DNA of 64,000 bases from positions 1 to 64,000 of the forward strand of contig JAHPZH010000006.1 of the NCBI GenBank assembly GCA_019058315.1, written 5' to 3'. Under the pieces are notes generated by a model, which saw nothing but the letters and a program-made list of their open reading frames with translations, did not search any database and had not been told where the DNA came from. Both the position numbers and the translations under genes were made by a program. This stretch comes from Candidatus Helarchaeota archaeon (lineage in GTDB: Archaea; Asgardarchaeota; Lokiarchaeia; Helarchaeales; RDOG01). This document shows positions 14,722-38,434 of this stretch, in pieces (the stretch's first letter is position 1; each line of letters starts with the position of its first letter).

Positions 14722-14822
14722 GCTGGGATAGCCAAGCGGTAAGGCGACAGGCTCGAGTTGGAAAAATGAGAAACCTGTTGACTAATTTAGTCGCGAGGGT
14801 TCAAATCCCTCTCCCAGCGCCA
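14722..14822 (+). tRNA. tRNA-Ser(CGA) with a 15-nt intron at canonical position 37/38 (14758-14772); CCA encoded
   Basis: Acceptor GCTGGGA/TCCCAGC, anticodon stem ACAGG/CCTGT, CGA at 14754-14756, long variable arm, T arm GAGGG-TTCAAAT-CCCTC; relaxed BHB with central helix CTCG/TGAG. Confidence 0.93.
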
Positions 14823-31585: not shown

Positions 31586-32304
31586 TTAACCTATTATTTT
31601 TTTAATTTCCAACAGATTCTCGATAATATAATCTGGTTTTTTATCCTTAGAAAATTCAATACTGCGATTATGTTTTCTTTTTATTAAAACTGTATTTATT
31701 TTTGCATTTTTCCCTGCTTGAATATCCAAATCTGTATCCCCAACAATATACATATTCTTATTTGAGAGATTATACTTTTTCATAAATTCAAAAATGGTAT
31801 CAGGTTGGGGTTTTGCTTTGTATTGTTGTTCAGTTCCAAGGAGATAAATTTCATGAAATATTTTATTATAAGGTAAATCAATTAAATCTAGTTCGAGATT
31901 TGCAATTGAAGCCGGAGTATTACTAATAATACCTAATTTTATGTCGTTTATAAATTTTAGTTCGTTAATTATGCCTCTAGCATCATTAAATAAATAAATT
32001 TCTCCATTTTTAATCATTTTTTTTCTTTCAATTAAATCCTCTTCGTCGAAACGTTTCCAAAAATCATCTATATCAAAGATTCCCCAGTTTCTAAGATATT
32101 CATCAAATTTCCTTCCAGAACGCCAAAAGGTGTGAATTTCTTGTTTGGTAAGCTCTTTTTTAGTTAGAATAAAAACAATCTTTGTAATTATTACGTCTAG
32201 AATTTCAAAGAAATTCTTGGGAACGTGGATGAATACACTTTAGAAAAATATTTTCATAAATTTGTGCCATCCAAATCAAAAAGAAGTCCGATGTTATTTT
32301 TCAT
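31586..32304 (-). CDS. HAD-superfamily (phosphoglycolate phosphatase-like) hydrolase, 229 aa, split by a 29-nt BHB intron; exons 32304-32262 and 32232-31586
   Basis: Exon 1 encodes MKNNIGLLFDLDGT (HAD motif I); exon 2 continues ...IHVPKNFFEILD and carries motifs II-IV (IISN, KPQP, VGDTDLD). The ATG overlaps the end of the upstream gene. The ORF track shows only the C-terminal 143 aa. Confidence 0.85.
32233..32261 (-). other. Putative BHB-type pre-mRNA intron (29 nt) in the HAD hydrolase gene
   Basis: Minus strand TGGATG-GCAC-AA^A-TTTATGAAAA-TAT-TTTTCTAAA-GTGT-AT^T-CATCCA: 6-bp outer helix, 4-bp central helix, two 3-nt bulges, inner hairpin; splicing gives GAT GGC ACA ATC ATC CAC. Confidence 0.85.
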
Positions 32305-32764
32305 GATTTACACTTTTAGATATTTCTAATAAAATTTCAACTGCTTTTCTTACAAATTTAACACATTTTTCTTGTAAAATATTTAATTTAATAAGTTTTT
32401 CTCGATCTTCTGGATCTCTTAAGTCACATTGAATTAATTCATAACACATTTCGCTTTTAAATTCGTTTTTAAATCTTTTAATGAATTCATTAGCTAAATC
32501 ATATGCATATTCTTTATCTTCATTACTATTTGACCTACCATATTTTAAATTTATTGCCAAGATCGCACCATTTACGGAACCACAAACAGAACCACTTCTA
32601 CCTATTCCTCCACCAAATGCCGTGGCAATTTTAGGTGTTATTGGTCCAATATTCCATGCTTCTTGCATTGTCATTAAAACGCTCTCAGCACAATTATATC
32701 CTTGTGTAAAATATGCTGTTGCTTTCTTCGGAAATTCTTGATTCTTTTCTCTCATTTTTATCAC
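32294..32764 (-). CDS. C_GCAxxG_C_C family putative redox protein
   Basis: GYNCAESV, FGGGIG..GSVCGSVNG, MCYELI, KCVKFV. Confidence 0.88.
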   Translation of the reverse strand: MIKMREKNQEFPKKATAYFTQGYNCAESVLMTMQEAWNIGPITPKIATAFGGGIGRSGSVCGSVNGAILAINLKYGRSNSNEDKEYAYDLANEFIKRFKNEFKSEMCYELIQCDLRDPEDREKLIKLNILQEKCVKFVRKAVEILLEISKSVNHEK

Positions 32765-38127: not shown

Positions 38128-38434
38128 TTAAGTTCCTCGTCTTCTATATTTACACCCTTTTATGGGACAAAATCTATATTGAGGAGCAGAAGATCCGGCA
38201 ACTGGTCTTTTAATAATCCATCCAGAAACCCAACCATGATGTGGACAGTAATATTTTTCTCTATCTTTTAAATTTTCATCTTGTTCGTCTTGTGTAACTT
38301 TAAAATTACATACATCATGTGTTTGTTTATATTTTTCATTTACTGGACATACATTCCCTTTACGTTTAATTAAATTTACGCGGGCTATCCTCAGAATTTA
38401 TACATCCAGTACAATCTACTGGAATTTCTTTCAC
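38128..38434 (-). CDS. Small double zinc-finger protein (~96 aa) split by a 16-nt BHB intron; exons 38434-38376 and 38359-38128
   Basis: Spliced product (M)KEIPVDCTGCINSEDSPRKGNVCPVNEKYKQTHDVCNFKVTQDEQDENLKDREKYYCPHHGWVSGWIIKRPVAGSSAPQYRFCPIKGCKYRRRGT; start GTG 38434, or ATT 38425 after SD GAGGTGA; absent from ORF track. Confidence 0.7.
38360..38375 (-). other. Putative BHB-type pre-mRNA intron (16 nt) in the zinc-finger gene
   Basis: Minus strand CCC-GCGT-AA^A-TTTAATTAA-ACGT-AA^A-GGG; contains the in-frame TAA; splicing gives CGT AAA GGG AAT GTA TGT in frame. Confidence 0.68.

What the first reader, a model, noticed from the sequence alone, without database searches (positions are those of the whole stretch)
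31586..32304. Protein-coding gene with a strict bulge-helix-bulge mRNA intron beside its catalytic motif (HAD phosphatase)
Seen: the ORF track gives a HAD protein lacking motif I. The missing N-terminus (MKNNIGLLFDLDGT, ATG 32304, overlapping the upstream gene's end) lies upstream in another frame and hits TGA two codons later. The intervening minus-strand sequence folds as outer helix TGGATG/CATCCA, central 4-bp helix GCAC/GTGT, 3-nt bulges AAA and ATT, and inner hairpin TTTA(T)GAAAA-TAT-TTTTCTAAA. Established: archaeal splicing endonuclease (EndA) cuts after the second nucleotide of each bulge. Applying that rule removes 32261-32233 (29 nt) and gives FDLDGT-IIHVPKNFFEILD, an intact 229-aa protein with normal motif I spacing. 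To my knowledge archaeal BHB mRNA introns are well documented essentially only for crenarchaeal cbf5. Inference: this is a functional mRNA intron in an ordinary metabolic gene of a probable Asgard archaeon, and standard pipelines would call it a truncation or pseudogene.
Basis: partly seen in the sequence, partly recalled or inferred. Interest (0 to 1): 0.95.

Follow-up and report, generated by a model that had tools for sequence, protein, structure and literature searches.

The report
tRNA-type intron splitting a HAD hydrolase gene
A 29-base insert shaped like the introns archaea cut out of tRNAs interrupts a phosphatase-family gene of an Asgard archaeon just after its catalytic motif, and relatives show the gene is alive and readable only after that insert is removed, something in print only for one other archaeal protein gene (cbf5).

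Summary
On the minus strand, ATG 32304 opens MKNNIGLLFDLDGT and then hits TGA. The rest of a HAD-IA hydrolase continues in another frame to 31586.

The 29 nt at 32261-32233 sit in a strict bulge-helix-bulge (BHB): a 6-bp exon-exon helix, a 4-bp central helix, two 3-nt bulges and an inner hairpin. Cutting after the second bulge base gives a 229-aa protein that aligns without a gap to intronless orthologues (DLDGT-IIHVP). No other cut position does this in the window.

- **Relatives:** three diverged orthologue loci (47-87% identity) carry 29-30 nt BHB inserts at the same codon. Their hairpin sequences differ, and one central-helix pair changes in a compensating way.
- **Selection:** dN/dS among intron carriers is 0.12-0.16.
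- **Assembly:** independent DNA assemblies contain the insert.
- **Machinery:** the genome encodes two splicing-endonuclease (EndA) subunits and the RNA ligase RtcB.
- **Missing:** no RNA data were available, so splicing is inferred, not seen.

In the papers searched, coding-sequence BHB introns are confirmed only for crenarchaeal cbf5. This scan has already noted many similar cases on other DNA and in this same genome. I confirmed three neighbours: RNase Z, EF-2 and a Cys/His protein. Verdict: a real intron and a new member of a known kind.

The parts
32262..32304 (-). Exon 1: start codon, 14 codons (MKNNIGLLFDLDGT, HAD motif I) plus the first base of codon 15
   Evidence: Motif I is conserved in all four intron-bearing orthologues.
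32233..32261 (-). 29-nt BHB intron (phase 1), with an in-frame TGA at 32256-32254
   Evidence: It is present without gaps in independent DNA contigs.
31586..32232 (-). Exon 2: last two bases of codon 15 to the stop codon. It holds HAD motifs II (ISNTP), III (KAKPQPD) and IV (GDTDLD).
32268..32273 (-). Outer (exon-exon) helix, 5' strand, TGGATG
   Evidence: 6 bp, 100% of cells paired in four sequences
32264..32267 (-). Central 4-bp helix, 5' strand, GCAC (exonic)
   Evidence: C-G here against U-A in the three relatives, a compensatory change
32261..32263 (-). 5' bulge AAA; predicted cut between 32262 and 32261
   Evidence: Cut rule from PMC2738675 and from this window's own tRNA-Ser intron.
32239..32260 (-). 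Inner intron hairpin (4 + 5 bp, one bulged U, 3-nt loop)
32235..32238 (-). Central 4-bp helix, 3' strand, GTGT (intronic)
32232..32234 (-). 3' bulge ATT; predicted cut between 32233 and 32232
32226..32231 (-). Outer (exon-exon) helix, 3' strand, CATCCA
32294..32764 (-). Upstream C_GCAxxG_C_C gene. Its last 11 nt overlap the HAD start, so the two genes are probably co-transcribed. The same neighbour is found in orthologous loci.

Best explanation
The HAD-IA hydrolase gene at 31586-32304 (minus strand) carries a genuine 29-nt archaeal bulge-helix-bulge intron in phase 1 of codon 15, one residue after the catalytic DxDGT motif.

**Inferred mechanism.** In the pre-mRNA, exon bases TGGATG and CATCCA pair with each other. 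Exon bases GCAC pair with intron bases GUGU. This presents two 3-nt bulges on opposite strands. The cell's splicing endonuclease cuts after the second base of each bulge. The enzyme here has two subunits, one catalytic and one lacking the catalytic His. RtcB then joins the exons (...GGCACAA|UCAUCCA...), and the intron is released, probably as a circle. Only the spliced mRNA encodes the full 229-aa enzyme. Unspliced RNA ends after 16 codons.

**Shown:** the structure, its exact fit to the insert, its conservation with covariation in diverged orthologues, purifying selection on the spliced frame, and the presence of the enzymes.

**Inferred:** that cleavage and ligation actually occur, and any regulatory role.
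For: 1. **Anatomy.** It is a strict hBHBh' motif. The geometry matches the 37/38 intron of this window's own tRNA-Ser(CGA) at 14722-14822, where the mature tRNA fixes the cut after the second bulge base. The same rule is stated for cbf5 in PMC2738675.
2. **Junction.** The spliced product is 229 aa and aligns without a gap to intronless orthologues P0003-P0007 and P0010. Of 13 slid cut positions in the window, only the EndA-rule one gives the conserved T-I-I-H.
3. **Relatives.** L001 (30 nt), L003/L004 (30 nt) and L005 (29 nt, 47% protein identity) carry BHB inserts at the same codon and phase. Each has an in-frame stop. The two lengths need different 'repairs' unless the insert is removed.
4. 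**Covariation.** 98% of pair cells are paired, against 27-48% when the partner is slid. The central helix shows C-G against U-A, and the inner hairpins are rebuilt from different sequence.
5. **Selection.** dN/dS is 0.12-0.16 at dS 0.48-0.74 among the window, L001 and L003. All four HAD motifs are intact.
6. **Real DNA.** Contigs from a second study span the insert with no gap.
7. **Machinery.** There are two PF01974 EndA paralogues. The 184-aa one carries candidate catalytic Tyr, His and Lys positions, assigned by eye. The 201-aa one has Ser where that His lies. RtcB is also present.
8. **Same habit nearby.** Three more genes on this contig have BHB inserts whose removal restores canonical motifs: RNase Z FDCGE|GTQ, EF-2 DTPGH|VD, and a Cys/His protein.
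Against: - There is no RNA-level evidence. No RNA run is listed for this DNA, so neither the spliced junction nor a circular intron has been seen.
- The unconstrained minimum-energy fold differs slightly from the strict BHB and is not exceptional in stability (z = -1.65).
- Strict BHB motifs are common by chance in this AT-rich genome. My genome-wide test found no excess of ORF-joining motifs over shifted-cut controls, so the motif alone proves nothing.
- Only four distinct intron-bearing sequences exist, so the covariation statistics are thin (34 of 500 shuffles reach the observed score).
Confidence: 0.87

Rival explanations
1. Pseudogene: a 29-nt insertion killed the gene and the hairpin is incidental.
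For: The unspliced frame stops after 16 codons. Annotators call truncated products. BHB-like motifs are frequent by chance in this genome.
Against: The insert is kept at the same codon in four lineages, down to 47% protein identity. dN/dS is 0.12-0.16 across dS of about 0.5-0.7. Exon 1 still encodes a perfect motif I in all four. The BHB pairs are maintained by compensatory change.
Confidence: 0.04
2. Translational bypassing (hopping, as in phage T4 gene 60) or programmed frameshifting or readthrough carries the ribosome across the insert without RNA splicing.
For: In L001 and L003 the insert is flanked by a GTACAAT direct repeat. A hop from ACA to ACA would give the same protein there. A stop codon follows the would-be take-off site.
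Against: The window has GCACAAA on one side and GTGTATT on the other. There is no matching landing codon, and only the EndA-rule cut gives the conserved residue. The change that destroys the repeat is exactly the one that preserves base pairing. The 29-nt and 30-nt inserts would need different recoding events. The repeat in L001 and L003 follows from a palindromic central helix.
Confidence: 0.03
3. A small mobile insertion (MITE-like, or a remnant of a homing cassette) that is tolerated because it happens to be removable. The BHB is then the element's own feature rather than a host-maintained intron.
For: The protein tree needs at least two gains or several losses of the insert. Only G000 among 42 genomes of the class with a homologue is interrupted. 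Earlier notes of this scan link mini BHB introns to homing endonucleases in other archaea (untested here).
Against: This is not exclusive of the main explanation, since it would still be spliced by EndA. No endonuclease gene lies next to the HAD gene here: the neighbours are C_GCAxxG_C_C, TatD and CDC48. I did not search the genome for other copies of the intron sequence.
Confidence: 0.05
4. Assembly or sequencing artefact: the 29 nt are not in the real DNA.
For: None beyond the fact that the genome is a metagenome assembly.
Against: Contigs of three runs from another study cover 32233-32261 with no gap. They show no substitution between 32219 and 32280, while the flanks differ at several sites. 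Homologous inserts exist in independent assemblies.
Confidence: 0.01

Closest known systems
BHB intron in the cbf5 (pseudouridine synthase) pre-mRNA of Crenarchaeota (Watanabe 2002; Yoshinari 2006; Yokobori 2009, PMC2738675)
   Same: Both are short introns inside a coding sequence, with predicted cuts between the second and third bulge bases. Both are phase 1 and lie next to the catalytic residue. Both have a patchy distribution implying gain and loss. Both hosts have a two-subunit splicing endonuclease. Both genes are mis-annotated as broken or frameshifted.
   Different: The host gene differs (a HAD-IA hydrolase, not an RNA-modification enzyme) and so does the phylum (Asgard, Promethearchaeia/Helarchaeota-like going by the names on the nearest records). 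The motif here is a strict hBHBh', whereas most cbf5 introns are described as unconventional BHB. Splicing is not shown experimentally here.
BHB intron in the 5' UTR of Haloferax volcanii HVO_1309 mRNA (PMC7714728)
   Same: It is an mRNA substrate of the archaeal splicing endonuclease, confirmed in vivo and in vitro there.
   Different: That intron lies in the untranslated leader. The one here interrupts the reading frame, so the protein cannot be made without splicing.
Canonical archaeal tRNA introns at position 37/38, for example this window's tRNA-Ser(CGA), 14722-14822
   Same: The geometry is identical: outer helix, 4-bp helix, two 3-nt bulges and a cut after the second bulge base. The size class is similar (15-30 nt) and presumably the same enzymes act.
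   Different: The outer helix here is made of codons (Leu-Asp-Gly with Ile-Ile-His) rather than an anticodon stem. The product is an mRNA.
Unconventional cytoplasmic splicing of HAC1/XBP1 mRNA (Ire1 cleavage; joining by tRNA ligase in yeast or RtcB in animals). This comparison is from my own knowledge.
   Same: It works alike: a short intron is defined by RNA stem-loops, cut by a protein endonuclease and joined by tRNA-type ligation. Removal changes the reading frame.
   Different: The nuclease is a different family (Ire1, not EndA) and the recognition motif differs. That system is a regulated stress response. No homology is implied.
Translational bypassing in phage T4 gene 60. This comparison is from my own knowledge.
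   Same: An untranslated gap with a stop codon and a hairpin lies inside a coding sequence.
   Different: It needs matched take-off and landing codons, which the window lacks.

Membership tests
Archaeal BHB (splicing-endonuclease) intron in a protein-coding transcript | hBHBh' motif: two 3-nt bulges on opposite strands, separated by a 4-bp helix and flanked by helices | tested here: met
   outer helix 6 bp, central helix 4 bp (one G-U), bulges AAA and ATT, inner helix 4 + 5 bp
Archaeal BHB (splicing-endonuclease) intron in a protein-coding transcript | Cutting between the second and third base of each bulge yields a functional, colinear product | tested here: met
   229 aa, no gap against intronless orthologues, and the only cut position giving T-I-I-H
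Archaeal BHB (splicing-endonuclease) intron in a protein-coding transcript | Structure conserved with covariation in homologous introns | tested here: met
   four sequences, 98% of cells paired, compensatory C-G against U-A in the central helix. The sample is small.
Archaeal BHB (splicing-endonuclease) intron in a protein-coding transcript | Host encodes the splicing endonuclease and an RtcB-type ligase | tested here: met
   two PF01974 proteins (103 and 78 bits) and RtcB (582 bits)
Archaeal BHB (splicing-endonuclease) intron in a protein-coding transcript | Spliced mRNA and/or excised (circular) intron observed | not testable with these tools
   no RNA run is listed for this DNA
HAD superfamily, subfamily IA hydrolase | Motifs I (DxDGT), II (S/T), III (K) and IV (GDxxxD) with a cap domain between I and II | tested here: met
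   HAD_2 at 3.8e-18 and TIGR01549 above its cut-off. Motifs lie at residues 10, 117, 153 and 179 of the spliced protein. No equivalog model is reached, so the substrate is unknown.
Programmed translational bypass (gene 60 type) | Identical take-off and landing codons flanking the gap | tested here: not met
   the window has ACA at take-off and no ACA at the landing site. The pair is present only in L001, L003 and L005, as a by-product of the palindromic helix.
Pseudogene | Relaxed selection on the interrupted frame | tested here: not met
   dN/dS 0.12-0.16

The most novel reading that the evidence does not exclude
The HAD intron is one visible piece of routine mRNA splicing by the tRNA-splicing machinery in this Asgard lineage. 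At least four genes within 50 kb (HAD, a Cys/His protein, RNase Z and EF-2) need it. The introns sit right beside catalytic motifs. The HAD site was either hit twice independently or lost at least three times. That would mean an active gain-and-loss process for protein-gene introns in the closest prokaryotic relatives of eukaryotes.
Probability: 0.5. Interest if true: 0.9.

Novelty: new member of a known kind. Interest (0 to 1): 0.76.

Why it matters
- **Print record.** In the papers searched, only cbf5 of Crenarchaeota is a confirmed case of an archaeal coding sequence that must be spliced by the tRNA endonuclease (PMC2738675, PMC7714728). An ordinary metabolic enzyme gene in an Asgard archaeon with the same requirement widens that to a new gene class and a new phylum.
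- **Annotation.** Such genes are systematically mis-called. Products of 143, 203 and 204 aa lacking the nucleophile are on record for this family.
- **Expression.** Expression of these genes depends on an RNA-processing step that could be regulated.
- **Eukaryote origins.** Protein-enzyme mRNA splicing in the closest prokaryotic relatives of eukaryotes bears on that debate. The eukaryotic HAC1/XBP1 pathway works in a similar way.
- **Testability.** The exact junction and the 29-nt circle make the claim directly testable.

Tried and rejected
- **RNA evidence.** The look-up of sequencing runs listed no RNA holder, so expression and splicing could not be examined. Only DNA contigs were laid.
- **Genome-wide screen.** The screen looked for strict BHB motifs that join open frames. 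It gave 23,302 loose and 1,572 strict motifs. There was no excess over controls with the cut shifted by 1-2 nt. The screen therefore cannot count mRNA introns. It also missed real-looking ones with 3-4 bp outer helices (EF-2, RNase Z, Cys/His protein).
- **More intron-bearing orthologues.**
  - The metagenome and genome pattern scans added only intronless or distant loci.
  - All 41 other homologue-bearing genomes of the class are uninterrupted.
  - The exhaustive representative search showed the truncated-N-terminus signature only in P0002 and P0012, both already examined.
- **tRNA calling.** ARAGORN with introns allowed gave a noisy tRNA list. I calibrated the cut rule on one Rfam-confirmed tRNA instead.
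- **Outer-helix codon bias.** Comparing the outer helix between intron-bearing and intronless genes was not informative. The Leu-Asp-Gly and Ile-Ile-His codons are partly complementary even without an intron (by eye).
- **Considered and rejected:** pseudogene, hopping or frameshifting, and assembly artefact (see rivals).

Full report
**1. What is in the sequence**

On the minus strand an ATG at 32304 overlaps the last 11 nt of the upstream C_GCAxxG_C_C gene (32294-32764). It opens MKNNIGLLFDLDGT, followed by Asn-Leu and a TGA at 32256-32254. A second frame is open from 32230 to the stop at 31586. It encodes 214 residues that match Pfam HAD_2 (3.8e-18), but only from profile position 46 on, so motif I is missing. 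Gene callers record just a 143-aa fragment for this genome (P0008).

- outer helix TGGATG with CATCCA, 6 bp, both strands exonic
- central helix GCAC with GUGU, 4 bp
- bulges AAA and AUU
- inner hairpin of 4 + 5 bp

Removing 32261-32233 (29 nt) gives a 229-aa protein. Motifs I-IV lie at residues 10, 117, 153 and 179.

**2. Is it more than chance?**

The fold on its own is not remarkable. The unconstrained minimum-energy structure differs slightly from the strict BHB and has z = -1.65. In this 30% GC genome I found 1,572 equally strict motifs on 11.6 Mb of both strands. A control with shifted cut sites showed no genome-wide excess of frame-joining motifs.

What is not chance is the coincidence with independent evidence.
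- Intronless orthologues of 229-232 aa (P0003-P0007, P0010; 66-71% identity) read LFDLDGT[I/L]IHVPE[N/D]FF. The spliced window product aligns to them without a gap.
- Sliding the 29-nt deletion by -6 to +6 nt shows that only the EndA-rule position gives T-I-I-H. All the others give F, N or worse.
- A strict motif at one given position and length is expected about 3 times in a million.

**3. Related sequences**

Proteins called with a truncated N-terminus led to three further loci:
- L001, named Hodarchaeota, 83% identity
- L003/L004, metagenomic, 87% identity
- L005, named Helarchaeota, 47% identity

Each has an insert at the same codon and phase, of 30, 30 and 29 nt. Each has an in-frame stop, and each folds as a strict or nearly strict hBHBh'.

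The inner hairpins are built from different sequences. In the central helix the window has C-G where the others have U-A, and 98% of pair cells are paired against 27-48% for slid partners.

Because the lengths differ (29 against 30 nt), no single recoding trick explains all four. Excision does. Shift 0 is also the only cut position that gives Ile or Leu in all four.

Among the window, L001 and L003, dN/dS is 0.12-0.16 at dS 0.48-0.74. The interrupted gene has therefore stayed under purifying selection in the spliced frame. Synteny (TatD, C_GCAxxG_C_C, HAD, CDC48) shows that intron-bearing and intronless genes are orthologues.

**4. Not an artefact**

Contigs from three runs of a different study cover the insert without gaps. 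They have no substitutions between 32219 and 32280, although they differ from the window at flanking sites.

**5. Machinery and cut rule**

The genome has two PF01974 proteins. One of 184 aa carries candidate catalytic Tyr, His and Lys positions, which I assigned by eye. The other, of 201 aa, has Ser where that His lies. This suggests a two-subunit endonuclease, the type linked to cbf5 splicing in Crenarchaeota. RtcB is also present.

The cut rule was checked on this window's own tRNA-Ser(CGA) (14722-14822; Rfam 52.9 bits). Its 15-nt intron has the same layout, and the mature anticodon loop requires cuts after the second base of each bulge. PMC2738675 states the same rule for cbf5.

**6. Distribution**

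Among 161 genomes of the class, 42 have a homologue. The window's own genome is one of them and is the only one interrupted. In a search of 1.84 billion representatives, only P0002 and P0012 show the truncated-N-terminus signature.

On a protein tree the window, L001 and L003 form one clade and L005 is basal within the family-level clade. Intronless P0006, G001 and the P0003-P0010 group lie between them. Well-supported branches force at least two changes. That means either two gains at the same site or one gain and three losses.

The Leu-Asp-Gly and Ile-Ile-His codons are partly self-complementary even in intronless genes (by eye). This may make the site a ready-made outer helix. That is inference.

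**7. Rivals**

- **Pseudogene:** contradicted by selection and by conservation of exon 1.
- **Ribosome hopping:** would work in L001, L003 and L005, where a palindromic GUAC helix creates an ACA...ACA repeat. It cannot work in the window. There the very substitutions that keep the helix destroy the repeat.
- **Assembly error:** excluded.
- **Mobile origin:** possible, but not in conflict with splicing.

**8. Context**

Following a note of this scan, I checked three neighbouring genes. Each has a 4-bp central helix with two 3-nt bulges.
- A 16-nt insert at 38360-38375 (minus strand) in a small Cys/His protein gene.
- A 29-nt insert at C6:64108-64136 in RNase Z. Its removal restores LFDCGE|GTQ.
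- A 31-nt insert at C6:81229-81259 in EF-2. Its removal restores DTPGH|VD.

The HAD intron is therefore not isolated in this organism. The scan's notebook lists many comparable candidates in other archaea. I did not test those.

**9. Literature**

PMC7714728 (2020) says the only BHB intron reported in an mRNA besides its own 5' UTR case is cbf5. PMC2738675 says introns in other protein genes had been predicted but none confirmed. The 2025 EndA structure paper cites only the cbf5 work. A 2026 preprint on Asgard tRNA introns does not treat protein genes. Five full-text searches found no report of coding-sequence BHB introns in Asgard archaea.

**10. Verdict**

This is a real intron with high probability (0.87). 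It is a new member of a known kind, in a new gene family and phylum. Its comparative support is unusually clean, but there is no RNA proof. The enzyme's substrate is unknown. It is HAD-IA, nearest to phosphoglycolate phosphatase or PpaX-like models and well below their cut-offs.

Noticed in passing
window 38360-38375 (minus strand): A 16-nt BHB mini-intron candidate lies in a small Cys/His-rich protein gene. It has a central helix GCGU with ACGU, bulges AAA and AAA, and a 3-bp GC outer helix. Removal joins ...CTGCINSEDSPR to KGNVCPVNEKYK..., 36 + 77 open codons.
   Followed up: partly
G000 contig C6:64108-64136 (plus strand, just past the window end): A 29-nt BHB insert lies in the RNase Z gene. 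Removal restores the canonical LFDCGE|GTQ motif, with 51 + 262 open codons.
   Followed up: partly
G000 contig C6:81229-81259 (minus strand): A 31-nt BHB insert lies in the EF-2 gene. Removal restores DTPGH|VD (the G3 motif), with 125 + 609 open codons.
   Followed up: partly
window 14722-14822 (plus strand): tRNA-Ser(CGA) carries a 15-nt intron at 37/38 with a minimal BHB and no inner helix. find_trnas without the intron option reports no tRNA in the window, but Rfam finds it.
   Followed up: yes
G000 contig C3:627504-631783: ARAGORN calls about 19 tRNA genes on one strand within 4.3 kb, several with introns. Only 40 tRNAs were called genome-wide, so many interrupted tRNA genes are probably missed.
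   Followed up: no
window 32264-32267 with 32235-32238, and the three other mRNA introns on C6: In all four mRNA introns of this contig, the outermost pair of the central helix is G-U, and the bulges are A-rich (AAA, AUU, AUA, AAG). In the relatives' HAD introns that pair is G-C.
   Followed up: no
G000 C12:5422-5676 and C1:331438-331698: There are two splicing-endonuclease paralogues. By eye, only the 184-aa one has a candidate catalytic His. This suggests a two-subunit enzyme of the broad-specificity type.
   Followed up: partly
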